From Candidatus Aceula meridiana (GTDB lineage: Bacteria > Omnitrophota > Gorgyraeia > Zapsychrales > Aceulaceae), in the NCBI GenBank assembly GCA_030765185.1, contig JAVCDE010000024.1, positions 187,538 through 251,537 on the forward strand: a DNA stretch of 64,000 bases, in the 5' to 3' direction. Below are positions 14,139 through 48,756 of the stretch, piece by piece. The notes beneath the pieces were generated by a model. It searched no databases and had not been told where the DNA came from. It saw only the letters and a list, made by a program, of their open reading frames with translations. The stretch's first letter is position 1. The number at the start of each line of letters is the position of its first letter. A program made the position numbers and the translations under genes.

Positions 14139-14214
14139 TGGTGACCCACCCGCGACTTGAACGCGGCACACCAGCCTTAAAAGGGCTGTGCTCTACCGGA
14201 TGAGCTAGTGGGTC
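14139..14214 (-). tRNA. tRNA-Lys (TTT), CCA encoded
   Basis: Reverse complement GACCCACTAGCTCATCCGGTAGAGCACAGCCCTTTTAAGGCTGGTGTGCCGCGTTCAAGTCGCGGGTGGGTCACCA. Confidence 0.8.
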
Positions 14215-26216: not shown

Positions 26217-26219
26217 AGT

Positions 26220-27218: not shown

Positions 27219-27772
27219 TTTTTTAAAATAATGCCTTCTGTTTGCTTGGTTTCATCGATAAGCTTTTTGGCTGCTGTAAAGCCTTCTTCCATCTCAGAAA
27301 GACTCGGGCCATATTTTGCAAATTTGACTAAATCGCATAAATTTAAAAAATGAAATAATAACTCCTTGTGACGGGCGACCAAAGACGGCGAAAGGTGCAA
27401 TGTATGTAAAAATTCTTCTGTCGTCATCTCAGGGGCATGAATGTCAAATTGAGACTCAAGATACCTGCGCACAATATCTGAAAGCACTGTGTAATATTCT
27501 TTAATTTTTCCCGCAGCTGGCAAGTTGAGGCGTTTTAATTCTTCAAGGGCCTCATAAGCAATTAAATAAGAAGGCTTGGCCGGCAAAACAATTTTTTTCT
27601 GCGCTTTCATTCTTTTTCTCAAAAAGCGAATAATGAAAAAAGCTCCTACAATTAAAGCTATTGCTAGAAGGAGAAAAAGCAAAAAATAATTTGGCGGAAA
27701 ATCAACCGGCGGTTGAATGTCCTGAAGCCCCTCTATTTCGTTTTGCGCAAAACAATCCAAAGCAAAAATCAT
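27215..27772 (-). CDS. Small single-TM protein, DUF4381-like, conserved in Bat loci
   Basis: One N-terminal TM helix. Its position between the DUF58 gene and batA matches other Bat operons. Family call is from memory. Confidence 0.4.
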   Translation of the reverse strand: MIFALDCFAQNEIEGLQDIQPPVDFPPNYFLLFLLLAIALIVGAFFIIRFLRKRMKAQKKIVLPAKPSYLIAYEALEELKRLNLPAAGKIKEYYTVLSDIVRRYLESQFDIHAPEMTTEEFLHTLHLSPSLVARHKELLFHFLNLCDLVKFAKYGPSLSEMEEGFTAAKKLIDETKQTEGIILKK

Positions 27773-28665: not shown

Positions 28666-28684
28666 GTTGTATCTACGGGACTTT

Positions 28685-29683
28685 TTATGGAACTTCTACT
28701 TCTTCAAAAATACGCTTAATCAAATCTTCTGATGTCTTTTCTTCGGCTTCTGCTTCATAACTGACAATAACACGATGACGCAGCACATCAAGTCCAATGG
28801 ATTTAACATCCTGAGGTGTCACATAGCCGCGTCTTTGGACAAAAGCATAAGCTTTAGCGGCAATGGCTAAATAAATCGTAGCCCGCGGAGAAGCACCATA
28901 TCGGATGAGCCCTTTAAGTTCACCAAGATTATAATTTTGCGGCTCACGCGTGGCTGTAATTAAGTCTACAATATAATGCTCAATCTTTTCATCCATATAA
29001 ATTTCATCAATAATATTGCGAACCCTGATAATGTCCTCAGGCTTAATAATCTCTTGAGTTTCAAACTGCTTATTTGTGTAGGACATTCTCTTTAAAATTT
29101 TATACTCTTCCTCTTTACTGGGATAAGTAATGTTGACTTTGAGCATAAAACGATCTACTTGCGCCTCCGGCAAAGGATAGGTTCCCTCCTGCTCAATCGG
29201 ATTTTGTGTCGCTAAAACTAAAAACGGATCATCTAATTTTAAAGTTTGATCGCCAATCGTGACTTGCCTCTCTTGCATAGCCTCAAGAAGTGCGCTTTGA
29301 ACTTTTGCCGGAGCACGGTTAATTTCATCAGCTAAAATAATATTCGCAAAAAGAGGCCCCTTTTTGACACTGAATGAAGATGTCTTTGGCTCATAAATCA
29401 TAGTTCCGGTAAGGTCAGCCGGTAGCATGTCAGGAGTAAACTGGAGGCGTTGAAACTTCGCTTGAATCGCCCCCGCCAGAGCCTTAACAGCCGTTGTCTT
29501 GGCTAGGCCTGGAACGCCTTCGATTAAAATATGGCCATTAGCTAAAAGACAGACTAACAGCCTCTCAAGCAAATATTTTTGCCCTACGATAATCTTTTCC
29601 ATCTCAAAAAAAATGCCATCTAAAAAAGCGCTCTCTTTTTTTACTTTTTCATTAATCGCGGTAATATCTTTATTTTCTACCAT
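28685..29683 (-). CDS. MoxR-family AAA+ ATPase
   Basis: Walker A GVPGLAKT and LIEGVPG...DMLPADLTGT; 332 aa. Confidence 0.85.
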   Translation of the reverse strand: MVENKDITAINEKVKKESAFLDGIFFEMEKIIVGQKYLLERLLVCLLANGHILIEGVPGLAKTTAVKALAGAIQAKFQRLQFTPDMLPADLTGTMIYEPKTSSFSVKKGPLFANIILADEINRAPAKVQSALLEAMQERQVTIGDQTLKLDDPFLVLATQNPIEQEGTYPLPEAQVDRFMLKVNITYPSKEEEYKILKRMSYTNKQFETQEIIKPEDIIRVRNIIDEIYMDEKIEHYIVDLITATREPQNYNLGELKGLIRYGASPRATIYLAIAAKAYAFVQRRGYVTPQDVKSIGLDVLRHRVIVSYEAEAEEKTSEDLIKRIFEEVEVP

Positions 29684-32700: not shown

Positions 32701-33046
32701 GGCGTTTATATACCTGGTTGGCAATACTATCTTTAAAAGGTTCATAAAAGGAAACCTTCTTTCCTTTCTTAACCTTTATAAATGTTCGAAATCCTTGTGC
32801 CGCAGTATAGCGATAGGCCTTATTCGCAGGCTGAAATTCCATAATCGCCTTATCTTTGCTTTCAATTCCAAAGCTTGAAATACACTGTCCGCGGTTCACA
32901 TAAAACACCCACATTGGAATTCCCCAAACTCCTGCAATGCCCGGAAAGAAATTCGTAAACGGTTTAGCCGTATTATAATTTTCGATAATAAATCGACTGT
33001 CGTTATCAAGATAATACTTTGGTGTTTTTACTTTTACTTTTGTCAT
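29771..33046 (-). CDS. Large (1091 aa) cytoplasmic protein of uncertain family. Probably an (alpha/alpha)6-barrel glycoside phosphorylase/hydrolase-like enzyme.
   Basis: No signal peptide. Motifs resemble six-hairpin glycosidases/phosphorylases: GEGFWTDHWTYNLDLI, PNWYDALNGLPG (DWND-like), GWLENQSIWLHMEYKFL. No exact family recognised. Confidence 0.35.
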   Translation of the reverse strand: MTKVKVKTPKYYLDNDSRFIIENYNTAKPFTNFFPGIAGVWGIPMWVFYVNRGQCISSFGIESKDKAIMEFQPANKAYRYTAAQGFRTFIKVKKGKKVSFYEPFKDSIANQVYKRHNKMAMTAHDLTIEETNETLGIVVRVNYATLPEEQYAALIRKVTVENISAANYQFEVLDGMPSIVPYGFNDRLLKDLSRTVEAWIQVSNLEKKAPYYNLKVIVSDKPYVENIDEGNFYFSFLNHKTKPKLLEPIVQPKCIFGQSKDFDYPKNFLAQENFKVPAKQKTNNKTPSAMSFAKFSLKKGEATTITSMVGHIHSKPQLNRIVRKSVLGEYVQKKMHRNEEIINELKNYVLTNSESRELNLYSMQTFVDNVLRGGLPISLKTDIGTSVLNVFSRKHGDPERDYNYFVLDPTFLSQGNGNYRDVNQNRRNDVWFNRDLKDGSIVDFLNLTQADGYNPLVVRGTAFYFRDSKKAEKLIKQYVQCEDVAFVRNLLKGDFFPGRVLKTIFEEDIHLKTPPDSFLMKILALCHERELADHGEGFWTDHWTYNLDLIESYLNVYPDQLRQLLLKKKVFSFYHNDHYVLPRRNRYILTERGPRQYHSVAKMPEEMLLHKKDDKLRMKKGKKSVYQTTLIAKLLCLVSNKAASLDPSGVGVEMEANKPNWYDALNGLPGLLGSSLSETLELKRFCLFLSDSLNTLGVDDNDSILLFEELAEFVRKLYDVLRDEPYSLSYWEKSNEIKERYRLSVLTGLTGKEKKISILEIKKFLSLVIKRTDKSVRLAKGKKGMATYFFHEITHYKKLNRISAQGLPFVAPLGFKRHNLPLFLEGFVHALRVEKDKKQAQEIYQKVRRSALFDKKLKMYRVNTDLSKETSEIGRARVFPAGWLENQSIWLHMEYKFLLETLRCGLYEEFHEDLSKTAVPFLNAEKYGRSILENSSFIVSSAHEDPHQHGRGYVARLSGSTAEFVHIWLLMNAGLRPFVVDAKGALALQFQPVLKGSFFTTQPTTIRYFNKNQKWQNINFLKDTYAFNFMGSTLVVYHNPKRRDTYKIKIKEIVLTYLKPKKKIKINAEVIPAPHANAVRDNQVERIDVFF

Positions 33047-34728: not shown

Positions 34729-35502
34729 TCAAGATAAAACCATTAATCCTCCGTAGCGGTCGAGCCAGCTCTCGCAAGAAGAATAATCCGGGCAAACTTT
34801 CTTAATCTTTTGCCAAAAACGCTTCGAATGGTTTGGAACCTTAAGATGCGTTAGTTCGTGAATAATAATATAATCAATAACCGCTTGAGGTGCCATAACC
34901 ATTTTCCAATTTAGATGAACGCTTTGACTATGATAATGGCAACTTCCCCAAATTTTCTTCTGGCTGCGAACAGTGACCTTTGAAGGATCCACCCCTAAAA
35001 ACCGTGCTAAAGGAAAAATGCGTCCCGCCAAAATTTCTTTCGCTTGTTTTCGGTACCAGACGATTAAAGCTTTTTGTACAGAAGGCTCCACCGCATGCGC
35101 AGGCATATCAAAAGGAATGCCGACTTCCAAATATTTATCTGTTAAACTAATTTTCAGACGCTTACCATCTGAAGGCGCATAACGCAGACTGTATCTCTCA
35201 CCTAAAAATAAAAATTCAGCTCCATTGCGGTAGGATCTTTTTCCCCTAGTAAAAAAACGCTTTTCAAATCCCTTAATTTTATCAAAAATCCACCTTGCTT
35301 TTTGCCGGATAAAATCTGCAATCTCCTTTTCTCGGAGAGACTTCGGTGCAAAAACTTTAACTTTAAGGTCTTGATCAATCTCAATTGCAATGGTAAACCG
35401 ACGGGCAGAACGAATAAGAAGATAGGAAATCTCCCCAAGCGGAGTTGTAATCTCGCGCGACGTAATTTCTCGCGGTGTTTTATTCAAAAAACGATACGTC
35501 AA
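34729..35502 (-). CDS. DUF45/YgjP-like zinc metallohydrolase
   Basis: HEXXH as IIIHELTHLKVPNHS near the C-terminus. Confidence 0.7.
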   Translation of the reverse strand: MTYRFLNKTPREITSREITTPLGEISYLLIRSARRFTIAIEIDQDLKVKVFAPKSLREKEIADFIRQKARWIFDKIKGFEKRFFTRGKRSYRNGAEFLFLGERYSLRYAPSDGKRLKISLTDKYLEVGIPFDMPAHAVEPSVQKALIVWYRKQAKEILAGRIFPLARFLGVDPSKVTVRSQKKIWGSCHYHSQSVHLNWKMVMAPQAVIDYIIIHELTHLKVPNHSKRFWQKIKKVCPDYSSCESWLDRYGGLMVLS

Positions 35503-36634
35503 TGTTAACTTTTGGCCCTACGTTAGGAGCTGCTGATGCACTATTAACTGACTCGCCATCTCGAATAATATATCCTCGGTTACCCTGGGCTAACTCAATC
35601 TGATCTTTTTGTCGTTGAACTTCTCGACGGGCTGAGGCGGCTTGGCGTTTAAGCTCATGGATGCGCTGTTTGGCAAGTCCGATTCCTTTTTTATGGTCAA
35701 AAATACGAGCCATTAAAGTTGAGTATTTTAAGTCCGTCATTTTTAATTGGGCATCGTCAACACGTGACTGATAAGCAGCTGAATTATTTCTCCAGACTTC
35801 TGGATCCTGAGAGATAGCAGCATTCATCTCTGTCTTAAGGGCTGCTAATTCCTGGCGTAAAATATCACGCTCTTTTAAAAGCGATACCGCTTGCTCATTT
35901 AAATTTGCTGTTTGCGCCTTAGAAAGTTCAATTTTTAGGCCACTAATTTCTTCTTGAGTTTGTTGGTTTTCTACCTGGGTCCTGGCAAGTAAGCTTTCAG
36001 TCTGCGCCAGAATAACACGGGTCGCGTTGTACTCGTTATTTAGCTCTGTCAAAACCTCTGCCTGGATTGTATATTGTTCCCTCGAAAAACGCAAAAGCCC
36101 TGCCTGGTTTGTCGCTGCACCCATCATCAAATGGTTTGATTTCTCAATAGTACGATGAACGCCTACTTGCTGACGCAATACAATAAATCCTAAAACGACT
36201 AAAATAAGAAAAAGCGCAATATTAACGATGTCTTTAAAATTATCCATGCGCTGAATGCTGACAATACGGCTTTGAACTCTTGTCTTTAGGCCCGTCAAAT
36301 CCTCTGCGGATGGATTAACAAATTCAATCCCACAAAGCAGGCTATGATTAAAAAATCCCTTTTCCTTTGACCAAACAACGCGCCCTTGCGATGGTAAAAA
36401 ATTATCTTTACTCTCTCTTTCCAGTCGAAGGCCTAAAACAGTCCCATTGCCAATAGGCCTTAAGGCTTTTGCCTCAAGCAGAGCCCCGGTTGAACTGATA
36501 TCTTTAATTCTTCCCGAGCCAAAAAAAGTGCTAATCTCAGACGACAGATTAACAGCCAGGTTTTCTCTGATACGAAACTTCCTTCGCCCTTCCTGATAAA
36601 GCTTCGCTGGAAAACCAAACATATTTCTTTTCAT
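35480..36634 (-). CDS. PilZ-domain protein with a TM segment and a long C-terminal coiled coil
   Basis: N-terminal RRKFRIR...DISSTGALL PilZ motifs, a TM segment (IVNIALFLILVVLGFIVL), then a heptad-rich region. Confidence 0.55.
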   Translation of the reverse strand: MKRNMFGFPAKLYQEGRRKFRIRENLAVNLSSEISTFFGSGRIKDISSTGALLEAKALRPIGNGTVLGLRLERESKDNFLPSQGRVVWSKEKGFFNHSLLCGIEFVNPSAEDLTGLKTRVQSRIVSIQRMDNFKDIVNIALFLILVVLGFIVLRQQVGVHRTIEKSNHLMMGAATNQAGLLRFSREQYTIQAEVLTELNNEYNATRVILAQTESLLARTQVENQQTQEEISGLKIELSKAQTANLNEQAVSLLKERDILRQELAALKTEMNAAISQDPEVWRNNSAAYQSRVDDAQLKMTDLKYSTLMARIFDHKKGIGLAKQRIHELKRQAASARREVQRQKDQIELAQGNRGYIIRDGESVNSASAAPNVGPKVNIDVSFFE

Positions 36635-39667: not shown

Positions 39668-41155
39668 TTAAAAATCTTTTTCGGAAAAAACTTGTGCTGT
39701 AAAAACTTCTAGGGTGACCGAGGGGTCCTTCCACGCATCTGCAGGCAAACCTGCTTTCTGAGTGCACAAAACAGATAAAAATTGTTCTTTAGTCCACCCC
39801 TGCTCAGTTCCGACTTGCGGCAAGAATAACCCTTTATGAAACAAGCCCTTGCTAACAATAACACCGTGTGTACCAATAACAATCTCATCAGCGCTGTTGA
39901 CTTTCCAAGGCTTGGACAAAACCGAAATCTCAATTTCTAAATCTTTTAATTCACTTGTCCCAACCGGGCTAAAACGCGGATCTTGAGTTGATGAGGCGAT
40001 TGCCATGTCACGTATAGTTTTATAAAGCGGCCCGCGCCCTAAAATATTTCCGATGCACCCCCGTAAATTCCCATTCTTATAAATCGTAACAAATGCCCCC
40101 TCTTCTAGGTTAAGCCGAGGATCTGCTTCTTTAAAATCTAATTTCTTTCCGGTTTTAATATACGTTGTCATGGTTTCCTTGGCTATCTCTAAAAGGCGTT
40201 TTTTCTGCGCGTCATTTAGGACAACGGTCTTATCTTTTAAAATCTTTTTTTCATTCTTTTTTTCATCCGGATAAAAAACTGCAGAAAAATATCCCACCAC
40301 AGCGCTCTTGTCTCCAGTAACATCACCGGAGTCTGCATATTTCAAAATCTTTGAGACAAGGCCCCTCTTTTTGGCATACAAAAGTGCTGTTGCTACAGGT
40401 CCAAATCCGCACAATTCAACTTTTTTCTGTTGACACCCTTGCCAAAGGGCTTCAGCTTCCAAATTTTGAACCAGCGCCATAGCCATCTTGTCCATTTTGC
40501 CAGCGGTTGTCGCATCATGATAATGTGACATGTCTGTGCTAATCACGATAAGCACATCATCACGATTACCGATAGCTCCATCCAAAGCCAATGCCAATTC
40601 TTGGCATGTTTTAAAATTCGGCCTGCCCATTAAAATTGGGACAATCTTAAAATCTTTAAATGTTTTTTGTATAAAAGGAATTTGAACTTCCAAGGCATGT
40701 TCACGAGAAAAAGCCTCTTTAATAAATTTAAAATTTGCATCTCTTGCACTAATATTGTCAGTAAAGTCCTGATCCACTTCAACTGAACCTAAAGGTGTTT
40801 CAAAGCTGCCTTCCGGCCAAATTGAAGCACCATCAAACCCTACGAAATGACTCGGAGCAATAACAACAATGGTTTTATATTCTCCTTTGCTTGCAGCTTT
40901 ATAGCCATAGGCGGCCACGCCGCCGGAATAAACATACCCGGCATGTGGAGCAATTAGAACTTCAACGTGTTCGGCAAGCGGAGAAATATCTGCCTTGTTT
41001 AAAAAATTGTCAATATTTTGAGAAAGTTTTTTGGGATTGGAAGAATAGAATTGCCCGCTAACGTTGGGGCGTTTGATATTATCTTGAGTAAAACCCTTAG
41101 CGCACATAAGAAATAAAAGGATAAAAAGAGTGGTTTGAATGAAAAAACGTTTCAC
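39668..41155 (-). CDS. Fusion of a Memo-like protein (AmmeMemoRadiSam system protein B) with a C-terminal AMMECR1 domain (protein A). Possible N-terminal signal peptide.
   Basis: IAPHAGYVYSG Memo motif and C-terminal GAFVTIYKNGNLRGCIG AMMECR1 motif. Start tentatively at the GTG at 41155 (MKRFFIQTTLFILLFLMCAKG-FTQ). The track start at 41230 runs through what looks like AT-rich promoter DNA. Confidence 0.65.
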   Translation of the reverse strand: MKRFFIQTTLFILLFLMCAKGFTQDNIKRPNVSGQFYSSNPKKLSQNIDNFLNKADISPLAEHVEVLIAPHAGYVYSGGVAAYGYKAASKGEYKTIVVIAPSHFVGFDGASIWPEGSFETPLGSVEVDQDFTDNISARDANFKFIKEAFSREHALEVQIPFIQKTFKDFKIVPILMGRPNFKTCQELALALDGAIGNRDDVLIVISTDMSHYHDATTAGKMDKMAMALVQNLEAEALWQGCQQKKVELCGFGPVATALLYAKKRGLVSKILKYADSGDVTGDKSAVVGYFSAVFYPDEKKNEKKILKDKTVVLNDAQKKRLLEIAKETMTTYIKTGKKLDFKEADPRLNLEEGAFVTIYKNGNLRGCIGNILGRGPLYKTIRDMAIASSTQDPRFSPVGTSELKDLEIEISVLSKPWKVNSADEIVIGTHGVIVSKGLFHKGLFLPQVGTEQGWTKEQFLSVLCTQKAGLPADAWKDPSVTLEVFTAQVFSEKDF

Positions 41156-41241
41156 AAAAATATTTTTATAAATATTATTAATAAATAAAAAAATGAACGA
41201 CTTTATTATAGCAAAAAAGAAAAATAACAAGGAGAGTTTTT

Positions 41242-41673
41242 TTAAGAGGTAATTTCGCCTTGATCGCGGTTTTTATCTAGGAAGGTTAGCATTTCTTTGG
41301 TGTAATAATCCATAAATTTCCGGCCTGCCTCGGAAGCAGTTTCCGCTAGCTTGACACCTGTTTCATAGGCTGCGCCCTCTTCAATTTTCTTAAACCAGAT
41401 AACACGCGCCGCTAGAGTCACTTTCCCTTTATCAGGAATTTCAAAGCTTAAATGAACTTCTTCGCCAATCGATGGCTTATCTTTGATGCGAAGCCTTAGG
41501 CCGTTACCGCTGATATCTAAAGTCGAGGCTTGATTAAGGTCGTCTTGAATAGCCGCCAGCTTGTATTCGATGGGAAGCTGAACTGAAAAACGCTTGTATG
41601 CACGCGATTCCGGAGGTGGCGGATGATGAGGCTCGTTAGGTTTCTGCCCTTCGTCAGGCTTCTGTTCTTCCAT
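41242..41673 (-). CDS. Small PilZ-domain protein (c-di-GMP-receptor-like) with a Pro/His-rich N-terminus
   Basis: RAYKRF...DISGNGLRL PilZ signature. Confidence 0.55.
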   Translation of the reverse strand: MEEQKPDEGQKPNEPHHPPPPESRAYKRFSVQLPIEYKLAAIQDDLNQASTLDISGNGLRLRIKDKPSIGEEVHLSFEIPDKGKVTLAARVIWFKKIEEGAAYETGVKLAETASEAGRKFMDYYTKEMLTFLDKNRDQGEITS

Positions 41674-41748: not shown

Positions 41749-44700
41749 TTATTTTAGCAAACTTAACTCTTTTGGCTCGTCGGCTAATATTTCTGCTGTT
41801 TCACTACCGTCATCTCTCTCTTCAATGTTCTGAAATCCTAAAAGCTGAGGCAGCTGCGGCATTGGCATAATATTAATAATCACAGGTACAAGTCCGTCAA
41901 TTTGAATCTGCTCTAAATTCTGCATCTCAAGAGGAAGCGGTACACCTTCCCCATCAATTTTAATATTAAGATCCTTATAAATTCCCGTTAAATCAATACC
42001 ACCGGTCCGCGTTGCTGCCGAAGAATTTTTTTCTTCCTGATTAAACCCTGCAACAATGCGCACAATCGTATCCAAATCTACACTTGACTCTTTGCTTAGC
42101 TCATAGGCAAACATTGCAGCCGTAAATCCGGAAGGTTCAGCAGCACGTCTTTTAATATTATATTTCTTGTATATTTTCTCAACTCCATTTATTTCTTGAT
42201 AAATAATGACTCTTGTGCCTACAAGGTTCTCTGCGCCTTCCTCAAAAGATTTCTCGGCCTGAACTTGCCACTGTGGATGATTCTCAACAGCCTTTTTTTC
42301 TGAAGTCTCTACGGAAGAGCTTACCACTGTCTCACGCAACAGCGCATGGGCAAATCGGCGTCCTTTCTTTTTCTGAGAGACCTCGCTCAGCATAACAAGA
42401 ACAAATAAAAATGGGGCATTGATCTCATGAAAAACTTTCCTATCATTGCCATCTTCTCGAAATAGGATTCTTGTCGGTATTTCACTGCTCATACTGGCAG
42501 GACCTCTTGAGTAATTCCCAATAATCCATTCTAACTCCTCGTTTTCTTCAAGAAGGCCCCAAACATATTCCGGAACCTCAAAACTTTTCTTTTCCAAGAG
42601 ACTATAATTAGAATAAGAAATCAAAGGATCATCAAGATTTGCAATTTGCGCTCTTGCCGCCTGCCACACGTGTTTTATCAAATCATCTGATTCAGATTGC
42701 AAGGCAATCTGTCTATAAAGCTCTCGGGCATAAAGAGGAGCTGCATCCAGGAGTTCTGCCATTACAATATAAAAGTTATCTTTTGTTATCCGATAAAGGC
42801 CCTGTCCACCTGAGGCTTCGATTTCTATAAAATCTCTTGCTTCAAGCTCTTCTTCCGGAAGAGCAGCCCTTTCGCTCTTTTCCTCAAAATACAAATCCCA
42901 AAGAATCGAAATTTTATTGCGGCAAAGAGTTAAGATATTTAATGAGACAGTGTGTTTTCTTTTATTTACAAAGAGCTGGCCGATCCTATCTACTCCTTTT
43001 TTAATTCTAACCTGTATAAGAGGATCCTCAATCTTCTCAATCATCTGTCTTGCCATGGCCGCGCTGCTGATTTTTATCCTGACTTTTTCTTGTGCCTTTA
43101 ACAAAGCTTCTCGATGAGCCTTTACTTGATAAGCCTTTAACAAAGCTTCTCGATAACCGCCTTCAAAAGAAGTTTCTGCACCACTATAAAGCTCTTTCAG
43201 GGTAACAGGCTCTCCAAAAACCTTCTCTAAAATTTTAGTAGCATTTTCCCCTTCATAGTCTTTAGCAAAAACAGGAAGGAGCTCCCCACTAAACTTACCG
43301 TCATCAGACAAAGAGGCGTTCGTCCAAGAAACATCCAGTCTTGCCGAAGCAAATTCTAAAGAATTTATTAAAGCAACAAGTCCCTGGACAACTTTTCTTT
43401 TATTTTCTTTTATTTTTTCTTTATCTGGATTATTCCAATCAACTGCTCTTTTACGCAAAGTTCGAAAAGGCTTTTTCCCTTGTTCAACCCAATCATCATA
43501 GCTTTGCGTGTAGACTCCTCCCTTTTCATCCACATAAATAACAGCATCACTTACCTTATAATTTCCATCCCTTCCTAAATAAAAAGGAAGAGGTCTTTTT
43601 TTAGTAGGAAGGGATAAACTCTGGCTCTCATTTAGAAACGCCTCATCTTCCTTGCTTAAAACAAAAGGTGGGTTTAATTTAAATTTCCCCTTAAAATCAC
43701 TTTCGATAATAACATTATCGCCGATATCCACATCCGTTAAATCAAGCTGCCCTTTTCTAACAACTCTAGCATATTGCGCCAACTTTTCTTGCTCTTCTTT
43801 GTTTAGTTCGGCAAATCCAAGACTATAGCGGTCTTTAAAATAGGCAGGATTAATGTTTTTACCAACCTCGTCCCTTGCTTCATCAATTACAATATCTAAA
43901 TCTACTCCTGTATCAATTCCAATAGCTTCAAAAAAGGAAAGTATATCTTCCATAGGAATATTTCCAACCTGATGTGCAGCTTTGGGCGATCCTCCTTGGT
44001 TAAGCAAGCTTACATCTATTTCTCTTATACCTGCAACAATCGCAGCTAAAACGTTAACGATCCCCTGTTCAGAATCAGTATGACCATGATAGGTAAAGCG
44101 AATTTCTCCTCTTTCAATCTCTTTTCTAAAATGCTTAAAAATCTTTCTTATAGCTTTAGAGGTTTCTTGGGCTGTTGCCTCACCCGTCGTATCACTTAAC
44201 GCAAAGACCTTAATGCCCGCCTTTTTATGCATTGTTTCAATCATTGGGATAATATCATCCTCAATGCTAATCTCTTCCTTCTCTCCTTTATCATTTGTAT
44301 AACCCCAAACATTGCTCAAATAACAAAGTGTTTCGACATCTATGCCTAAAAGTTTATTTTGCTCGTTAACATACCTAAACGAATCTTTTGTTGGATCATA
44401 GCTTTCTAAATTACCAGGCTCAGAATAACCGGCAAGCTTATAGAAAAAATCTAAAGGATTGTTCTCGCCTACGTTGGATTTGGCATATCCTTTTGCTGCC
44501 TGAATATTAATAGCGATGCGTGCCAAGCCAGGGTCGTCTTCAAAAATACGCATAATCTGATTTAAACTAAAAGCCAAATAACCTCTTTTAATACCAGTGT
44601 CTTTATGTTTAGTATAAAGTTTTTTTGCTAAAGACCGCGCATGTATATTAATCGGAATAACCTTTTCATGAACATAAGAAACAGGCTCAATACGATTAGT

Positions 44701-47700
44701 TACAAGATTTCCTTTGGCGTCATAGCGTTTACGCGCAGAAAAAGCCCGAATGAGAGCATCTGTAATCTTAAACAGGGCTTCCTCGGTGATAACGTCTTCT
44801 TTTTTCAACATCTGAAAGGATTCCCGCGGAACCGCATTAAAAGCAATCGGATCATTTTTAGCGATCTCAATAATTTCTGCAAGATTAATCCCATTTTCAT
44901 TAATTAAGCGGATAAGCTTATCTAGATTTCTTTTGGCTGTCGGATAATCAATGTTGAGAATCTTATTCTTTGCAGTAGAAGATGCTTTGGCATAAAAAAC
45001 AATGACCTTGCCCTTACCTTGGAGGGTAATCACATGGGCATGGACTGCATCGATTTCTTCGTCTTCAAAATCCTTTCTTAAAAGATGGATAGTGCCGTCA
45101 GGTCTTAAAATGCTATTAAAATCTTCTTCAACAATATCTTCGTGGTCAACAACCTGAATATATTCGCCGCTTTGAGGCTTAAAAATTTGTTCTAACCCCT
45201 CCGCATCTTTGATAATGACATAGTGATAATCAACTGTTATATCAAAAACATCTTTAATTGTTTTTCTTAAATTTTTCTCACTTTCGTTAGAAAACCGAGC
45301 GCTATTCTCTTTCGATCTCGTTAAATCAAGGAGAAACTTTCTTAAGTCGTCTATAGATTGATATGCCGCAGGTTTTTCCATTTCAATCTCTTCAGTATCA
45401 GCCGATCCTCTCCTTGCAAGGCTCCAGAAACCGTCTTTTTTCAAAAAACCAATTAGCCCTTCCTCTTTAGTTTTCACACCGAAACCTTGTAAAGCAGAAG
45501 GCCAATCTTTAGAATCTAGCCCCTCATTATTTTCTCCGTAAACTTTTTCAATTGTTAAATGTCCTTTAAAAGCATTCTTAGCCGCCGAATAAACCTCTTT
45601 CGCCGGGACATTGTCTGCAAAGCTGGGGATGGTGATTGAGGAGGAAGAGACCCATAAAGCGAGGGAATACTCATCTTCAGTTGCAACCGGCATTACCTCG
45701 CTGCCTTTGAATTTGCTAGCCAAAGTTAAAAGATTCGACTGAACAGCTGCAATCAAGTCAGGTGATTTTTCTTTATTGCTCTGGATCACTTTGACCAAGA
45801 CACCTTTTTGTTTCTTGCCGTTAACTTCTCGTATAAAAGGCTTAGCTTCAATAGAAAAATCATAGTTCGGCTTTAATTCTAAGCTTATATCCTGATTCAT
45901 AAATTCACGCACAAGCGTTTCGACTTTCTTCACAACAGAAGAGCTCGTCTTTAGCCCAGAGATTTGCACAACCTGCCATTTATTATTATCTTCCGATAGG
46001 GGACGAATCTTGACAAACTGGCTTGAATATCCGCTAAAAAATACTGTTATTTCCTTAATGTCATCACTTCCATCAAGCTCAGGCCAAACATCTTCTATCC
46101 CATCTTTGGCATTTCCAAACGAAAAATCTAACGTTTCACCATCGTCAAAAGTAGCAACAACCTTACGAGGCAGAACTTTAGGATAGGCATCAGCGATATG
46201 CTGCAAAATTTCGCTTCCGTCTTTTTCGATTATCTCTTTTACTCGCAACCCCGAACTCGACCTTGAGAAAACAGCAACTTTACCGCCGGCTTCAAGAATA
46301 TAAGATGTCAAAGAAACTTTTTGGCTCTCTCTTTTTTCGCGAATTGCAGCAATATCTACGGGAGCTAAATTTGATTCATGGAAAACAGGAACGCCCTGAT
46401 TTTGAAACCTAAGCAAAGCTTCCTTAATTGCGGATGGAGTTTGATAGGTTCTTTCTCTCCGGCCTATGCTTAAAGGGATTCTAGAGCTTTTTCTTAAAGG
46501 GATTCTAGAGCTTTTTTTATAAGAAATTTTAAAAGCTTTAATTGCCTCTGCACTCGGGCTGTAATTTTGTCCGTTTCTTGTTTTAATAATCTTTTTAAAA
46601 TGATCAGGAGGTAGGCTTTCAGCTCCAACAACTCTCGTTGGCCCGGTAAACACTACTTTTTCTTTAAAATTATTTCTTTTCTTTCGGACAATATTCTTTC
46701 TTTGTTCTAAAGTCGCAAACGCGGCATTAGTAATCTTCTTTATTTTTTCAGAAAAATTGTTCCAATAAAACTTAATCCCGCCGGAAAAATATTTACGAGG
46801 GAGATTTTTGTTCGTGTAAGGGTCATATTCAGCTTTAATATAGTTGTAGGCACCTTGCTTGTAGGCCTCAAGGTATTTTTGGTAAATAACTTCTTTTCCT
46901 TCTTGTTCACTTACTAAATCAATTCCTTTAGTCCTATTTTTATCAACATAGGCTTGGCCCAAAAGGCTTGTCTTGGCGGCTTGCTTAAACCACGCGGCAA
47001 GAATAAGCGAATGATAAATCTGGCGCAAAGGTGCAAAGTTGCGGCCAAAATTAACTTCTTTTTCCAGCTCGGGAATAACGATTTCACGGACAATCGCCGA
47101 AGAGACAGCGCTTGTTTTTTCAATCTCTGATTTTTCTATTTGATTGGTTGCAATATCTTTTCGCCCTTGATTTTCTTGTAAGGCCAGATAGTCTTCCTCC
47201 AGCATAACCTTTAAAGAACTCTCTGCCACGAAAACCATATTGTCATGCTCATAAACTGCAACTTCATCCGGCATAATCCACACCTTATTAAAGGTGTTGA
47301 TTGGAATTTCTGTTGTGCCAAAGGTCTCATATGCCTTTTTATAAATTTTCTCCCAAAATTTCCTTCCAAGATCGTTCTCAGGGTAGATAAGTGATGCGGT
47401 AATTTGCTTTAAAAGATAATCCTGGGCGAGCATGTCACGACCCATTTCTGTTTTGCCAAAATCATCAGCAACAATGCGGTCTTTTTCATAGGGAGAAAGA
47501 TTGACCCAGAGGTCTTCTTCGGGGGTGGTTAATGACGCTAAGAAATAACGGATCATCTTTTCAGATTCAGATTTAAAAGCTTGTCCCTCAAGCCCATCAT
47601 CGCCGCTATTGACGATAAAATCAAACTCAAAAGGATTGTTTGGGTGAATTTGAATGCCTGTAATAATGGCTGGCTGGTAAGATGTGCTTAATGGCACCAT

Positions 47701-47838
47701 GGTTCCCGGAGCTGGCAGCTGCAACATTTGTGCAAATCCAGTTGATGGCAAGACAATATTGGTCAAAAATACGAAACAAACAAGAAAGGAAACAGTCTTG
47801 GCGCAACGGCCTTTCTTGCTGCGATGAAGCGATGGCAT
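41749..47838 (-). CDS. Giant (2029 aa) signal-peptide-bearing protein of unknown function. It has a conserved N-terminal module shared with the paralog at 1..952 and an internal HMGL-like (DRE-TIM) half-barrel.
   Basis: Uninterrupted 6090-nt ORF. Signal-peptide-like N-terminus (KTVSFLVCFVFLTNIVLPSTGFAQ). Residues ~1180-1330 line up with LeuA motifs (DTTG, YHGHTD, GNIPMEDI). Rho-independent terminator downstream. Confidence 0.7.
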   Translation of the reverse strand: MPSLHRSKKGRCAKTVSFLVCFVFLTNIVLPSTGFAQMLQLPAPGTMVPLSTSYQPAIITGIQIHPNNPFEFDFIVNSGDDGLEGQAFKSESEKMIRYFLASLTTPEEDLWVNLSPYEKDRIVADDFGKTEMGRDMLAQDYLLKQITASLIYPENDLGRKFWEKIYKKAYETFGTTEIPINTFNKVWIMPDEVAVYEHDNMVFVAESSLKVMLEEDYLALQENQGRKDIATNQIEKSEIEKTSAVSSAIVREIVIPELEKEVNFGRNFAPLRQIYHSLILAAWFKQAAKTSLLGQAYVDKNRTKGIDLVSEQEGKEVIYQKYLEAYKQGAYNYIKAEYDPYTNKNLPRKYFSGGIKFYWNNFSEKIKKITNAAFATLEQRKNIVRKKRNNFKEKVVFTGPTRVVGAESLPPDHFKKIIKTRNGQNYSPSAEAIKAFKISYKKSSRIPLRKSSRIPLSIGRRERTYQTPSAIKEALLRFQNQGVPVFHESNLAPVDIAAIREKRESQKVSLTSYILEAGGKVAVFSRSSSGLRVKEIIEKDGSEILQHIADAYPKVLPRKVVATFDDGETLDFSFGNAKDGIEDVWPELDGSDDIKEITVFFSGYSSQFVKIRPLSEDNNKWQVVQISGLKTSSSVVKKVETLVREFMNQDISLELKPNYDFSIEAKPFIREVNGKKQKGVLVKVIQSNKEKSPDLIAAVQSNLLTLASKFKGSEVMPVATEDEYSLALWVSSSSITIPSFADNVPAKEVYSAAKNAFKGHLTIEKVYGENNEGLDSKDWPSALQGFGVKTKEEGLIGFLKKDGFWSLARRGSADTEEIEMEKPAAYQSIDDLRKFLLDLTRSKENSARFSNESEKNLRKTIKDVFDITVDYHYVIIKDAEGLEQIFKPQSGEYIQVVDHEDIVEEDFNSILRPDGTIHLLRKDFEDEEIDAVHAHVITLQGKGKVIVFYAKASSTAKNKILNIDYPTAKRNLDKLIRLINENGINLAEIIEIAKNDPIAFNAVPRESFQMLKKEDVITEEALFKITDALIRAFSARKRYDAKGNLVTNRIEPVSYVHEKVIPINIHARSLAKKLYTKHKDTGIKRGYLAFSLNQIMRIFEDDPGLARIAINIQAAKGYAKSNVGENNPLDFFYKLAGYSEPGNLESYDPTKDSFRYVNEQNKLLGIDVETLCYLSNVWGYTNDKGEKEEISIEDDIIPMIETMHKKAGIKVFALSDTTGEATAQETSKAIRKIFKHFRKEIERGEIRFTYHGHTDSEQGIVNVLAAIVAGIREIDVSLLNQGGSPKAAHQVGNIPMEDILSFFEAIGIDTGVDLDIVIDEARDEVGKNINPAYFKDRYSLGFAELNKEEQEKLAQYARVVRKGQLDLTDVDIGDNVIIESDFKGKFKLNPPFVLSKEDEAFLNESQSLSLPTKKRPLPFYLGRDGNYKVSDAVIYVDEKGGVYTQSYDDWVEQGKKPFRTLRKRAVDWNNPDKEKIKENKRKVVQGLVALINSLEFASARLDVSWTNASLSDDGKFSGELLPVFAKDYEGENATKILEKVFGEPVTLKELYSGAETSFEGGYREALLKAYQVKAHREALLKAQEKVRIKISSAAMARQMIEKIEDPLIQVRIKKGVDRIGQLFVNKRKHTVSLNILTLCRNKISILWDLYFEEKSERAALPEEELEARDFIEIEASGGQGLYRITKDNFYIVMAELLDAAPLYARELYRQIALQSESDDLIKHVWQAARAQIANLDDPLISYSNYSLLEKKSFEVPEYVWGLLEENEELEWIIGNYSRGPASMSSEIPTRILFREDGNDRKVFHEINAPFLFVLVMLSEVSQKKKGRRFAHALLRETVVSSSVETSEKKAVENHPQWQVQAEKSFEEGAENLVGTRVIIYQEINGVEKIYKKYNIKRRAAEPSGFTAAMFAYELSKESSVDLDTIVRIVAGFNQEEKNSSAATRTGGIDLTGIYKDLNIKIDGEGVPLPLEMQNLEQIQIDGLVPVIINIMPMPQLPQLLGFQNIEERDDGSETAEILADEPKELSLLK
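46469..46516 (-). repeat. In-frame 24-bp tandem duplication inside the giant gene
   Basis: CTTAAAGGGATTCTAGAGCTTTTT occurs twice, encoding (K/R)KSSRIPL twice. Confidence 0.7.
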
Positions 47839-47943
47839 AAGGAAAACCCTTCTTTTTCTTCGTGGCTGGTTAACTATTTAAAATTTAGGAAATACAATAT
47901 GTTATTGCAAGAGAGCGTTTTCGATCAAAACGCTTTTTACAAA

Positions 47944-47970
47944 GATAGCATACCCCTAAGTAATTACAAG
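47944..47970 (-). promoter_or_regulatory. Conserved upstream box plus covarying hairpin (47914..47932), shared with 1207..1233
   Basis: See the feature at 1207..1233. Here the box lies ~106 nt upstream of the giant gene start. Confidence 0.35.
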
Positions 47971-48084
47971 TCCTTTGGCCCATAGTAAAGATGACGCAAC
48001 ATACTGTTAGGTATGAACTTACAATCTTAATAAAATATTTCTAGGAATTTAATAGAAATTTAACTTTTTGGAGGAAGAATTGCC

Positions 48085-48756
48085 CTAGAAAAGCAGAATT
48101 CCCTGAAAAAGAAAGTATCCTGCGGCTATAAATAAAATGGCAGCTGAGGCCTGTTTGACTCGCAAAAGCCATCTACCAGATTTTGGAAGGCGTGCCAAAA
48201 ATCCTGAAAACGTCCCTGCTAAAATAAGTGAGAACCCAACTCCATAGGCAAACACAAACAATAAACTTATAGCATGAAAAAGGTTCTGTTTTGAGCTTAC
48301 ATATAAAAGAAGTGTTCCTAAGACCGGCGCTGTACAAGGGCCCACGACAAACCCAGAAACCATGCCAAACAAAAACACAGCTATAAAACCCTTAGGTCGA
48401 ATTCTGTTCTGAAGTTTAGCACCAACAACCGGAAATGGAATGATGTTGAGCATGATAAGCCCAAAAACAACCAAAACACAGGCAACAACAATAAAAATAT
48501 AAGGATTATTTTGAAGCTGTCCAAATAATTGGCCGGTTAAAACCGCAATCGCGCCGAGAGCGCTATAGGTTATTGCCATGCCAAGAACATAAATGCACGA
48601 AAGAAAAAATCCTACCCTCTTCGTGCCTTGAGCATTTGCGCCGGCGATAAATCCGGCAATGATGGGAATGACTGGATAGACGCAAGGGGTGAAACTAACC
48701 ATCACCCCCGCGCCTAAAACAATAAAGTAATCTAAAAAATTTCCGGAAAGCTCCAT
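48085..48756 (-). CDS. ccdA: CcdA/DsbD-family thiol-disulfide transporter (cytochrome c biogenesis-type)
   Basis: Six TMs with FTPCVYPVIP and a second conserved Cys (GPCTAPVLG). Confidence 0.75.
   Translation of the reverse strand: MELSGNFLDYFIVLGAGVMVSFTPCVYPVIPIIAGFIAGANAQGTKRVGFFLSCIYVLGMAITYSALGAIAVLTGQLFGQLQNNPYIFIVVACVLVVFGLIMLNIIPFPVVGAKLQNRIRPKGFIAVFLFGMVSGFVVGPCTAPVLGTLLLYVSSKQNLFHAISLLFVFAYGVGFSLILAGTFSGFLARLPKSGRWLLRVKQASAAILFIAAGYFLFQGILLF

What the first reader, a model, noticed from the sequence alone, without database searches (positions are those of the whole stretch)
43850..44320. Cryptic HMGL-like (DRE-TIM metallolyase) half-barrel embedded in the giant secreted protein
Residues ~1180-1330 read IKVFALSDTTGEATAQE...IRFTYHGHTDSEQGIVNVLAAIVAGIREIDVSLLNQGGSPKAAHQVGNIPMEDILSFF. 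These align motif-for-motif with the C-terminal half of the LeuA TIM barrel encoded in this same window: [11 protein letters not shown]...[50 protein letters not shown]. The matching elements are DTxG, the H-x-H-x-D metal ligands, and G(E)xxGN...E. I did not find the N-terminal R-D-G-x-Q half of the barrel. A metallolyase-type fold inside a signal-peptide protein is unexpected. It could be an exported enzyme domain, a degenerate binding module, or a domain recruited from a cytoplasmic enzyme.
Basis: partly seen in the sequence, partly recalled or inferred. Interest (0 to 1): 0.6.

Follow-up and report, generated by a model that had tools for sequence, protein, structure and literature searches.

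The report
Complete HMG-CoA-lyase-like barrel in exported protein
The flagged stretch is real, but it is half of a complete, probably still active HMG-CoA-lyase-type enzyme domain, carried as cargo in a 2029-residue, signal-peptide-bearing, almost cysteine-free protein from a large family found in Omnitrophota that places cytoplasmic-type enzymes between two conserved end modules.

Summary
The motif match is real: Pfam PF00682 hits residues 1196-1317 at E=1.4e-13, above the gathering score. The "half-barrel" reading is wrong. The N-terminal half is present as P-R-E-S-F-Q at residues 1004-1009. An AlphaFold model of residues 990-1345 superposes on whole HMG-CoA lyases (TM 0.81-0.86). The domain is closer to HMG-CoA lyase than to the LeuA in this window.

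Against human lyase, six of eight critical residues are identical: Arg41, Glu72, Tyr167, His233, His235 and Asn275. Asp42 is Glu and Cys266 is Ser. Thirteen embedded copies in Omnitrophota long proteins share this pattern, and some are fused to acyl-CoA dehydrogenase and enoyl-CoA hydratase.

The host ORF (window 41749-47838, minus strand; Ca. Aceula meridiana) belongs to a family with >3400 hits. It has a Sec signal, a ~325-aa N-module, variable enzyme cargo and a ~70-aa C-module. Mature regions hold 0.055% Cys against 1.05% in neighbouring proteins, yet GAPDH cargo keeps its catalytic Cys. Orthologues are syntenic with a downstream PilZ gene. The lyase cassette has been swapped between lineages.

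Best reading: an exported, metal-dependent C-C lyase with altered chemistry. Localisation and activity are inferred. This is a new variant of a partly described phenomenon.

The parts
41749..47838 (-). Host ORF, 2029 aa. Identical to NCBI MAG Candidatus Aceula meridiana hypothetical protein P9M07_04425.
   Evidence: P0001, 100% identity
47731..47838 (-). Predicted Sec / signal peptidase I signal peptide, residues 1-36. It has five K/R, then the hydrophobic stretch VSFLVCFVFLTNIVL, then P-S-T-G-F-A|Q.
   Evidence: this is the only strongly hydrophobic segment; 111 of 118 family members have [G/A/S/V]-x-A|Q near position 37, with a median of 4 K/R and 0 D/E before the hydrophobic region. The prediction comes from sequence rules only; SignalP was not run.
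46759..47730 (-). Family-defining N-module, residues 37-360 (LPxPG...NPFxFDF...WVNLSPYE...TFNKVW...PRKYFSGG). No known family or fold match.
   Evidence: 49-63% identity across paralogues with different cargo; no PDB fold, Pfam or NCBIfam match; at least 589 loci, the named ones being Omnitrophota MAGs.
43774..44946 (-). HMGL-like cassette, residues 965-1355. It comprises a clade-specific N-terminal helix, the barrel and a C-terminal S-L-G-F-x-x-L tail. Its history differs from that of its flanks.
   Evidence: features shared by 13 embedded copies; 51-54% identity to P0180 but 25-26% to P0002, while the flanks show the opposite relation.
43834..44841 (-). Complete (beta/alpha)8 DRE-TIM barrel, residues 1000-1335, of the HMG-CoA-lyase branch.
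   Evidence: AlphaFold2 pLDDT 86, pTM 0.87. Foldseek top hits 6nds, 1ydo, 2cw6 and 2ftp, E~1e-18, target-normalised TM 0.81-0.86; clade profile against 1ydo E=2e-45 and 2cw6 E=9e-43.
44803..44829 (-). Beta-1 motif P-R-E-S-F-Q-M-L-K (1004-1012). R1005 matches Arg41. E1006 replaces the metal ligand Asp42. Q1009 is invariant.
44677..44694 (-). Beta-2 motif R-I-E-P-V-S (1049-1054). E1051 matches Glu72.
44320..44322 (-). Y1173, which matches catalytic Tyr167 of human HMG-CoA lyase. It is invariant in all 13 embedded copies.
   Evidence: Y209 of alignment A5; alignment to 2cw6_A with an offset of +27; residue list from PMC6941031.
44080..44088 (-). H-G-H (1251-1253), matching metal ligands His233 and His235.
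43984..43995 (-). G-G-S-P (1282-1285). S1284 takes the place of catalytic Cys266 in the lyase G-G-C-P loop.
   Evidence: the position is Ser or Asn in every embedded copy.
43960..43965 (-). G-N (1292-1293). N1293 matches metal ligand Asn275. The invariant E-D follows at 1297-1298.
41809..42036 (-). Family-defining C-module, residues ~1935-2010 (TGGIDLTGIY...GLVPVIINIMPMP..LLGF). No known family.
   Evidence: shared by ~114 of 119 homologues at 33-65% identity; no Pfam or NCBIfam hit.
41242..41673 (-). PilZ-domain gene (143 aa), 75 nt downstream on the same strand. The pairing is conserved in all orthologous loci examined.
   Evidence: PF07238, E=4e-13; the same position in L001-L004.
48085..48756 (-). 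DsbD_TM / CcdA-type membrane protein directly upstream. It is a conserved neighbour, listed for context only.

Best explanation
Residues ~1000-1335 form a complete divalent-metal (beta/alpha)8 DRE-TIM barrel of the HMG-CoA-lyase branch. It is the one recognisable catalytic cargo of a 2029-aa protein.

The protein is built as follows: a Sec signal peptide, a ~325-aa conserved N-module, a variable middle, and a ~70-aa conserved C-module. The family is very large, occurs in several copies per genome, and all named members come from Omnitrophota MAGs.

Proposed mechanism:
- The protein crosses the inner membrane by Sec and the signal is cleaved after Ala36 (inferred).
- It acts outside the cytoplasm, in the periplasm, on the surface, secreted, or delivered to a partner cell (inferred).
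- The barrel binds Mg2+ or Mn2+ through E1006, H1251, H1253 and N1293. It uses R1005, E1051 and Y1173 to stabilise an enolate and break or make a C-C bond in a 3-hydroxyacyl-CoA-like or oxo-acid substrate (inferred from residue conservation).
- Every embedded copy has lost Cys266 and gained clade-specific insertions, so the chemistry or substrate probably differs from canonical HMG-CoA cleavage.

Shown: fold, homology, residue pattern, family architecture, cysteine depletion, synteny and cassette mosaicism. Inferred: export, metal binding, catalysis and substrate.
For: Homology and fold:
- Pfam hit above the gathering score.
- Full-length alignment to stand-alone lyases.
- Confident model with whole-chain superposition on HMG-CoA lyases.
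- Clade profile against PDB lyases at E=2e-45.

Likely catalytic competence:
- Six of eight critical residues named in PMC6941031 are identical and one is a conservative change.
- These residues are invariant across 13 copies that are 22-54% identical.
- Other embedded copies are fused to acyl-CoA dehydrogenase plus enoyl-CoA hydratase (P0183) or to enoyl-CoA hydratase (P0187). That is an acyl-CoA pathway context.
- GAPDH cargo in P0029 and P0080 keeps its S-C-T-T-N cysteine although almost every other Cys is gone.
- The PGK cargo of P0003 scores 343 bits against Pfam.

Export:
- A signal-peptide pattern conserved across the family.
- A single hydrophobic segment.
- Cys at 0.055% over 243,719 mature residues, against 1.05% in other ORFs of the window. 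For this protein P=1.9e-7.
- Family member P0072 lies inside a type II secretion operon.
- The literature places such enzyme domains in predicted extracellular regions, near type II secretion loci and upstream of pilZ genes.

Long-term retention:
- P0003 and P0004 are positional orthologues in the same gene order, NrdD-NrdG-PEPCK-PFOR-DsbD-giant-PilZ-Memo/AMMECR1-AsmA.
- An HMGL cassette is kept at the same place even after cassette exchange.
Against: - Cys266, listed as catalytically critical, is Ser here, and Asp42 is Glu.
- The NCBIfam HMG-CoA-lyase model scores 57 bits against a cutoff of 246.
- The Pfam match covers only the C-terminal half, at 51 bits. This is far weaker than the PGK cargo of an orthologue.
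- CoA thioesters are not expected outside a cytoplasm, so an exported acyl-CoA lyase has no obvious substrate.
- No dedicated signal-peptide or topology predictor was available. No experimental data exist for any family member.
- This window contains no secretion-system genes.
- The N-module model is mediocre (pLDDT 62) and has no fold match.
Confidence: 0.6

Rival explanations
1. The barrel is a pseudoenzyme. It is an intact fold kept as a metal-, metabolite- or partner-binding module on an exported scaffold or adhesin, with no turnover.
For: - Cys266 is lost in all embedded copies, and Asp42 is Glu in this subgroup.
- The scores against the curated lyase models are weak.
- The cassette is the least conserved part between this protein and its closest relative P0002.
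- No CoA is expected outside cells.
- The giant-protein literature favours adhesion or scaffold roles.
Against: - Pseudoenzymes usually lose catalytic and metal ligands. Here R, E, Y, H-x-H, N and E-D are invariant over deep divergence.
- Family cargo keeps catalytically essential Cys against a strong purge.
- Fusion partners of other copies are consecutive acyl-CoA pathway enzymes.
Confidence: 0.25
2. The protein is not exported. The N-terminal hydrophobic segment is an uncleaved membrane anchor, and the enzyme-bearing bulk faces the cytoplasm as a tethered metabolic enzyme.
For: - The cargo enzymes of the family need ATP, NAD or CoA, which are cytoplasmic.
- The authors of bioRxiv 10.1101/2023.11.21.568195 themselves note that localisation may have been mispredicted for glycolytic domains.
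- The downstream partner PilZ is cytoplasmic.
Against: - Five K/R lie before the hydrophobic segment, and no charged residue lies within the ~25 residues after it. This predicts N-in, C-out.
- The small-x-Ala|Gln site is conserved in 111 of 118 members.
- The near-total cysteine purge has no rationale for a cytoplasmic protein, and it matches the low Cys of envelope proteins here, such as AsmA at 0.16%.
- One family member lies in a type II secretion operon.
Confidence: 0.1
3. The resemblance is a chance motif coincidence, or a decayed fragment recently copied from the LeuA gene of the same genome.
For: The pairwise BLAST to that LeuA is modest (29% over 95 aa, E=5e-5).
Against: - E=1.4e-13 against Pfam.
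- Full-barrel alignment and fold match to HMG-CoA lyases.
- A deep clade of embedded copies with shared insertions.
- Syntenic orthologues in distant relatives.
Confidence: 0.01

Closest known systems
HMG-CoA lyase (EC 4.1.3.4; PDB 6NDS, 1YDO, 2CW6/3MP3, 2FTP)
   Same: - The same (beta/alpha)8 DRE-TIM barrel over its whole length (target TM 0.81-0.86).
- The best sequence and profile matches.
- Arg41, Glu72, Tyr167, His233, His235 and Asn275 are identical.
- The Q and K of the R-D-G-L-Q-N-E-K motif are kept, as Q1009 and K1012.
- Some embedded copies sit next to acyl-CoA dehydrogenase and enoyl-CoA hydratase domains, as in leucine catabolism.
   Different: - Asp42 is Glu, and catalytic Cys266 is Ser. 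The second conserved Cys, in F-G-C-P/T, is also gone.
- There is an extra N-terminal helix, a longer alpha1-beta2 loop, a ~20-30-aa insert after beta-4 and a C-terminal S-L-G-[LF]-x-x-L tail.
- It is embedded at residues 1000-1335 of a 2029-aa signal-peptide protein, not a ~300-aa soluble enzyme.
- It scores far below the NCBIfam cutoff (57 against 246 bits).
Other DRE-TIM metallolyases (2-isopropylmalate synthase LeuA, citramalate and homocitrate synthases, 4-hydroxy-2-oxovalerate aldolase)
   Same: The same superfamily fold, the H-x-H and G-N metal motifs, and the beta-1 Arg.
   Different: These are more distant. Foldseek E is 1e-13 to 1e-14 with TM 0.6-0.7, against 1e-18 with TM above 0.8 for the lyases. 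Pairwise identity to LeuA is 29% over only 95 aa. There is no LeuA regulatory or dimerisation domain.
Omnitrophota giant proteins ('Archaeovorins', 'multi-enzyme metabolic clusters'; bioRxiv 10.1101/2023.11.21.568195 and 10.64898/2026.06.07.730766)
   Same: - The same phylum.
- Central-metabolism enzyme domains inside signal-peptide proteins predicted to be extracytoplasmic.
- A pilZ gene directly downstream.
- A link to type II secretion loci, seen here for family member P0072.
   Different: - 2 kaa rather than 10-147 kaa.
- One hydrophobic segment rather than tens of TM helices.
- No HEAT, TPR or glycosyltransferase content detected.
- Defined by an N-module and a C-module that I did not find described.
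- The terms 'HMGL' and 'HMG' are absent from these papers, and 'cysteine' does not occur in either.
Polymorphic effector / toxin cassette proteins (Rhs, CDI, MafB-type architecture; analogy from general knowledge)
   Same: Conserved trafficking-type ends, a hypervariable swappable payload, many paralogues per genome, rapid divergence compared with neighbouring genes, and evidence of cassette exchange.
   Different: - The payload is internal and bracketed by two conserved modules.
- The payloads are housekeeping-type metabolic enzymes rather than nucleases, deaminases or pore formers.
- No immunity gene is evident.
- No homology to those families was tested or found.

Membership tests
Pfam PF00682 HMGL-like / DRE-TIM metallolyase superfamily | Significant match to the family model above the curated gathering score | tested here: met
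   51.3 bits against 29, E=1.4e-13. The orthologues also match.
Pfam PF00682 HMGL-like / DRE-TIM metallolyase superfamily | Complete (beta/alpha)8 TIM barrel that superposes on solved members | tested here: met
   AlphaFold2 pLDDT 86 and pTM 0.87. Foldseek hits to 6nds, 1ydo, 2cw6 and 2ftp over ~335 columns, target TM 0.81-0.86.
Pfam PF00682 HMGL-like / DRE-TIM metallolyase superfamily | Beta-1 catalytic Arg (Arg41 in human lyase numbering) | tested here: met
   R1005 is invariant in alignments A2 and A3.
Pfam PF00682 HMGL-like / DRE-TIM metallolyase superfamily | Beta-1 Asp metal ligand (Asp42) | tested here: not met
   The position is Glu1006. It is Glu in P0001-P0004, P0180, P0184 and P0185, and Asp in P0181, P0183, P0186, P0187 and P0193. 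The carboxylate is kept, so metal binding remains plausible but is untested.
Pfam PF00682 HMGL-like / DRE-TIM metallolyase superfamily | Beta-2 Glu (Glu72) | tested here: met
   E1051 is invariant.
Pfam PF00682 HMGL-like / DRE-TIM metallolyase superfamily | H-x-H metal ligands on beta-7, plus Asn on beta-8 | tested here: met
   H1251, H1253 and N1293 are invariant.
Pfam PF00682 HMGL-like / DRE-TIM metallolyase superfamily | Divalent-metal-dependent C-C bond chemistry | not testable with these tools
   This needs a metal analysis and an enzyme assay of the recombinant domain.
HMG-CoA lyase proper (EC 4.1.3.4) | Score above the curated NCBIfam cutoff (NF004283) | tested here: not met
   57.2 bits against a cutoff of 246.
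HMG-CoA lyase proper (EC 4.1.3.4) | Catalytic Cys in the G-G-C-P loop (Cys266) | tested here: not met
   The position is Ser1284. It is Ser or Asn in all 13 embedded copies. The importance of this residue is taken from PMC6941031.
HMG-CoA lyase proper (EC 4.1.3.4) | Catalytic Tyr167 | tested here: met
   Y1173 is invariant in A5 and aligns to Tyr at index 140 of 2cw6_A, which is residue 167 with the +27 offset.
HMG-CoA lyase proper (EC 4.1.3.4) | Stand-alone soluble enzyme of ~300 aa, cytoplasmic or in an organelle | tested here: not met
   The domain is embedded in a 2029-aa ORF with an N-terminal signal.
Omnitrophota N-module / C-module cassette family (unnamed; defined here) | N-terminal signal peptide plus the conserved ~325-aa N-module | tested here: met
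   49-63% identity to paralogues.
Omnitrophota N-module / C-module cassette family (unnamed; defined here) | Conserved ~70-aa C-terminal module | tested here: met
   Residues ~1935-2010 are shared with ~114 of 119 homologues.
Omnitrophota N-module / C-module cassette family (unnamed; defined here) | Variable middle region carrying enzyme domains of cytoplasmic type | tested here: met
   The cargo here is HMGL-like. Elsewhere it is PGK, PGM, PGI, GAPDH, enolase, FBA, TPI, PEP-utilising enzymes, ICL, malate synthase and others.
Omnitrophota N-module / C-module cassette family (unnamed; defined here) | Near absence of cysteine in the mature chain | tested here: met
   There are 2 Cys in 1989 mature residues. 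The family stands at 0.055% against 1.05% in the window's other ORFs.
Giant 'Archaeovorin'-type proteins (bioRxiv 10.1101/2023.11.21.568195) | Length of tens of thousands of residues with many TM helices | tested here: not met
   2029 aa with one hydrophobic segment.
Giant 'Archaeovorin'-type proteins (bioRxiv 10.1101/2023.11.21.568195) | pilZ gene immediately downstream | tested here: met
   The PilZ ORF is at 41242-41673, and the pairing is conserved in orthologous loci.
Giant 'Archaeovorin'-type proteins (bioRxiv 10.1101/2023.11.21.568195) | Type II secretion-like locus upstream | tested here: not met
   The Pfam scans covered ~35.5-57 kb and 21.7-33.8 kb of the window and found no secretion genes. 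Paralogue P0072 does lie in a T2SS E-F-G-K operon.

The most novel reading that the evidence does not exclude
Omnitrophota carry a phylum-wide, multi-copy cassette system: a Sec signal, an N-module, swappable cargo and a C-module. It exports catalytically competent central-metabolism and acyl-CoA enzymes, here an HMG-CoA-lyase-derived C-C lyase. These would be delivered onto or into partner cells, where their cofactors exist. In effect they would be 'metabolic effectors' of host-dependent nanobacteria. The cysteine purge that spares only catalytic cysteines would be the signature of this export route.
Probability: 0.3. Interest if true: 0.85.

Novelty: new variant of a known kind. Interest (0 to 1): 0.62.

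Why it matters
1. Annotation. Family members are named in GenBank after their cargo. The 2702-aa orthologue in Ca. Aceula lacicola is called 'phosphoglycerate kinase', and others are called 'glucose-6-phosphate isomerase'. Metabolic reconstructions of Omnitrophota MAGs may therefore count exported cargo domains as housekeeping enzymes.

2. Tractability. The function of the 10-147-kaa Omnitrophota giant proteins is an open question, and they are almost impossible to handle. These 1-3.5-kaa relatives carry the same kind of enzyme content, have clear boundaries and a single domain of interest. They could be expressed and assayed.

3. Biology. The family is almost free of cysteine, yet keeps the catalytic cysteine of its GAPDH cargo. 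That argues from sequence alone that the cargo is both exported and active. If so, metabolic enzymes working outside the producer's cytoplasm would be a new trait of host-dependent bacteria.

4. Enzymology. The embedded clade is a distinct HMG-CoA-lyase variant that lacks Cys266 and has Glu or Asp at position 42. It may catalyse a different reaction.

Tried and rejected
- N- and C-modules scanned alone against Pfam and NCBIfam gave no hits.
- The unannotated regions 401-989 and 1346-2029 gave no PDB hits with phmmer and no Pfam hits.
- The profile search with the 13 embedded domains and the single-domain search returned only short stand-alone lyases. A wider census of domain partners was therefore not possible. 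The exhaustive phmmer search supplied the embedded relatives instead.
- Look-ups of the other two Ca. Aceula meridiana paralogues (P0009, P0048) found no record.
- A pilZ gene downstream is not universal in the family. It is absent after P0029 and P0102.
- Origin from the LeuA in this window is rejected.
- I looked for a remnant of the Gly-zipper lipoprotein gene that separates DsbD and the giant gene in the orthologous loci. None was found.
- No dN/dS was attempted, because the closest relatives are too divergent (at most 56% amino-acid identity in the cassette).
Full report
**1. Observation**

The finding lies in a 2029-codon ORF on the minus strand (window 41749-47838). This ORF is identical to a hypothetical protein of the MAG Candidatus Aceula meridiana, phylum Omnitrophota. 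The quoted peptide is residues 1209-1303, which is window 43930-44214.

Pfam PF00682 (HMGL-like) matches residues 1196-1317 to profile positions 144-253 of 260. The E-value is 1.4e-13 and the score 51.3 bits, against a gathering score of 29. phmmer against PDB sequences puts HMG-CoA lyases first: 6nds at 7.5e-13, 2ftp at 7.6e-10 and 1ydo at 1.6e-7. The motif match is therefore real and far beyond chance.

**2. It is a whole barrel, not a half**

The 1ydo alignment already reached back to residue ~1150. MAFFT alignments with three giant homologues and with stand-alone lyases show the N-terminal half:
- A-V-P-R-E-S-F-Q-M-L-K (1002-1012) aligns with E-V-G-P-R-D-G-L-Q-N-E-K.
- R-I-E-P-V-S-Y-V (1049-1056) aligns with I-E-V-G-S-F-V.

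Pairwise BLAST to a 315-aa Crassaminicella lyase covers its residues 5-279 (25% identity, E=4e-15). BLAST to the LeuA in this window (3026-4546, minus strand) covers only 95 residues (E=5e-5).

An AlphaFold2 model of residues 990-1345 has pLDDT 86 and pTM 0.87, and shows eight strand-helix units. Foldseek against PDB ranks HMG-CoA lyases first: 6nds, 1ydo, 2cw6 and 2ftp, with E of 1e-16 to 1e-18 and target-normalised TM of 0.81-0.86 over ~335 columns. Aldolases and the synthases (IPMS, citramalate and homocitrate) follow at lower TM.

**3. Active-site ledger**

A review (PMC6941031) lists Arg41, Glu72, Tyr167 and Cys266 as the critical catalytic residues of human lyase. It lists Asp42, His233, His235 and Asn275 as the metal ligands. 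I mapped these through the hmmsearch alignment to 2cw6_A, whose chain index is offset by +27, and through A2, A3 and A5.

| Human lyase | This protein |
|---|---|
| Arg41 | R1005 |
| Glu72 | E1051 |
| Tyr167 | Y1173 |
| Cys266 | S1284 (lost) |
| Asp42 | E1006 (conservative) |
| His233 | H1251 |
| His235 | H1253 |
| Asn275 | N1293 |

Six residues are identical, one is conservative and one is lost. NCBIfam's HMG-CoA-lyase model scores only 57 bits against a cutoff of 246. The domain belongs to the fold family but is not a curated equivalog of the enzyme.

**4. A clade of embedded copies**

An exhaustive phmmer search of 1.84 billion representatives found 1233 hits.
- The best hits are other long proteins: P0180 (2060 aa, 56% identity), P0181 (2863 aa), P0183 (2421 aa), P0187 (1773 aa) and P0004 (1742 aa), plus fragments.
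- Stand-alone ~300-aa lyases rank below them.
- The named members come from Omnitrophota MAGs.

Aligned together, all 13 copies keep E (beta-2), Y, H-x-H, G-N and E-D. The beta-1 Arg is kept in every copy that includes that strand. All have Ser or Asn in place of Cys266. They share an extra N-terminal helix, an insert after beta-4 and an S-L-G-[LF]-x-x-L tail. Position 42 is Glu in one subgroup, which includes this protein, and Asp in the other.

P0183 also carries acyl-CoA dehydrogenase and enoyl-CoA hydratase domains. P0187 carries enoyl-CoA hydratase, and P0181 carries AceK. Acyl-CoA dehydrogenase, hydratase and lyase are consecutive steps of leucine catabolism (my own knowledge). This argues that the clade still works on acyl-CoA-type substrates.

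**5. The host protein family**

The full-length search gave 3467 hits among the 8000 candidates scored. The named hits come from Omnitrophota/Omnitrophica MAGs or unassigned metagenomes. Their lengths run from 1100 to 3500 aa. BLAST coverage shows they share only two parts:
- residues 1-~360, at 50-60% identity;
- residues ~1935-2010.

The middle is variable. By precomputed Pfam it carries PEP-utilising enzymes, phosphoglucomutase, glucose-6-phosphate isomerase, PGK, hexokinase, GAPDH, enolase, aldolases, TPI, PEPCK, isocitrate lyase, malate synthase, acyl-CoA dehydrogenase and others.

Neither end module has a Pfam, NCBIfam or PDB-fold match. A scan of GTDB species representatives found at least 589 loci encoding the N-module. 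The records that name a phylum are Omnitrophota; many others carry only a generic 'uncultured Planctomycetales' or 'bacterium' label. Several loci come from the same genome. A second member starts at window 952 and runs off the left edge.

**6. Export signature and cysteine purge**

The protein has one strongly hydrophobic segment, at residues ~15-30. Among 118 family members:
- the median is 4 K/R and 0 D/E before the hydrophobic region;
- 111 have small-x-Ala|Gln(Lys/Arg) near position 37.

This is the pattern of a cleaved Sec signal. It is my inference, since no dedicated predictor was available.

Mature regions of 120 members hold 133 Cys in 243,719 residues, or 0.055%, and 61 members have none. 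The pooled other ORFs of this window have 1.05%. This protein has 2 Cys in 1989 mature residues (binomial P=1.9e-7).

In GAPDH-bearing members the surviving cysteines include the catalytic Cys of S-C-T-T-N: positions 635 and 1075 in P0029 and position 603 in P0080. Cysteine has therefore been removed almost everywhere except where catalysis needs it. This points to an extracytoplasmic fate and to active cargo.

By the same logic, the uniform loss of Cys266 suggests that it is dispensable for whatever reaction the embedded lyase domain performs.

**7. Genomic context and evolution**

The loci of P0004 (three contigs) and of P0003 have the same gene order as the window: NrdD-NrdG-PEPCK-PFOR-DsbD_TM-(Gly-zipper)-giant-PilZ-Memo/AMMECR1-AsmA...PD-(D/E)XK. 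P0003 belongs to Ca. Aceula lacicola and is annotated 'phosphoglycerate kinase'.

Flanking orthologues are 52-84% identical to those of the window, except AsmA at 36%. The giant protein is only 31% identical, and P0003 has gained a PGK domain.

The cassette has a different history from its flanks:
- Against its closest relative P0002, the flanks are 40-77% identical, but residues 965-1355 are only 25-26% identical.
- Against P0180 the relation is reversed: 51-54% in the cassette and 20-39% in the middle flanks.

The lyase cassette has therefore been exchanged while the same enzyme type was kept at the same place.

Family member P0072 lies inside a T2SS E-F-G-K operon. The window itself has no secretion genes nearby. 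Positions 21691-29683 hold a Bat/MoxR-type operon.

**8. Comparison with the literature**

- West-Roberts et al. (bioRxiv 10.1101/2023.11.21.568195) report glycolytic enzyme domains in predicted extracellular parts of giant Omnitrophota proteins over 30 kaa. They also report upstream T2SS-like loci and downstream pilZ genes. They themselves question the localisation.
- A 2026 preprint (10.64898/2026.06.07.730766) defines 'multi-enzyme metabolic cluster' long proteins, most with a signal peptide and/or TM helices.
- Neither paper contains the words 'cysteine' or 'HMGL'/'HMG'. I did not find the N-/C-module family described in them.
- The paper that named Ca. Aceula (PMC8542988) did not surface these proteins in a term search.

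**9. Verdict**

The domain is a complete barrel derived from HMG-CoA lyase, with a conserved metal and catalytic site but an altered loop. It is the cargo of a 2-kaa member of an exported, cysteine-purged cassette family found in Omnitrophota. Activity, substrate and final location are inferred, not shown.

The main rival is a non-catalytic binding module. A cytoplasmic tethered enzyme is less likely, and chance is excluded.

Noticed in passing
window 1-952 (-): A second member of the same N-module family starts at the ATG at 950-952 (MFTFKTQPRCRKTVSFIITIAFLGNFILPTQGFAQALALPAPG...). It is 60% identical to the N-module of the giant protein and runs off the left edge of the window, so its cargo is unknown.
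   Followed up: partly
window 41242-41673 (-) and 35480-36634 (-): There are two PilZ-domain genes. The 143-aa one lies 75 nt downstream of the giant ORF, and this position is conserved in all orthologous loci (L001-L004). A 384-aa PilZ protein lies further downstream, and a comparable 390-aa one is present in L004.
   Followed up: partly
window 47839-48084; L001 7305-7751: In the orthologous loci a 148-aa Gly-zipper lipoprotein gene lies between DsbD_TM and the giant gene. In this window that gene is missing. The gap is 246 bp, and tblastn found no remnant.
   Followed up: yes
P0003/P0328 (L004 1517-9625); P0014, P0042, P0085 and others: GenBank names family members after their cargo. Examples are 'phosphoglycerate kinase' at 2702 aa and 'glucose-6-phosphate isomerase' at 1895 and 2829 aa. 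Metabolic reconstructions of Omnitrophota MAGs could therefore count exported cargo domains as the housekeeping enzymes.
   Followed up: no
P0029 residues 635 and 1075; P0080 residue 603: These proteins are otherwise almost free of cysteine, yet the surviving Cys include the catalytic Cys of the GAPDH S-C-T-T-N motif. P0029 carries two GAPDH units plus an acyl-CoA dehydrogenase.
   Followed up: partly
L006 (locus of P0072): A 1714-aa family member with no Pfam-recognisable cargo sits inside a type II secretion operon, between T2SSE and T2SSF-T2SSG-...-T2SSK.
   Followed up: no
window 21691-29683 (-): A Bat/MoxR 'aerotolerance'-type operon: MoxR AAA, DUF58, DUF4381, BatA (VWA), BatB (VWA), a TPR protein, BatD, and a TPR-SH3 protein.
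   Followed up: no
window 29771-33046 (-): A 1091-aa ORF with no Pfam hit at E<=1e-4 and 0.64% Cys. It is not a member of the N-module family.
   Followed up: no
window 39668-41230 (-): A Memo-like domain fused to AMMECR1 in one 520-aa protein. It is conserved next to PilZ in all orthologous loci.
   Followed up: no
window 13916-14214 (-): A cluster of three tRNA genes: Gly-GCC, Leu-TAG and Lys-TTT.
   Followed up: no
P0181 (2863 aa, Ca. Abzuiibacterium) and P0187 (1773 aa): These long Omnitrophota proteins lack the N-module but carry embedded HMGL-like domains. P0181 has one Cys, in its signal region, and P0187 has none. The cysteine purge therefore extends beyond the N-module family. P0181 also carries a complete AceK (isocitrate dehydrogenase kinase/phosphatase) unit.
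   Followed up: partly
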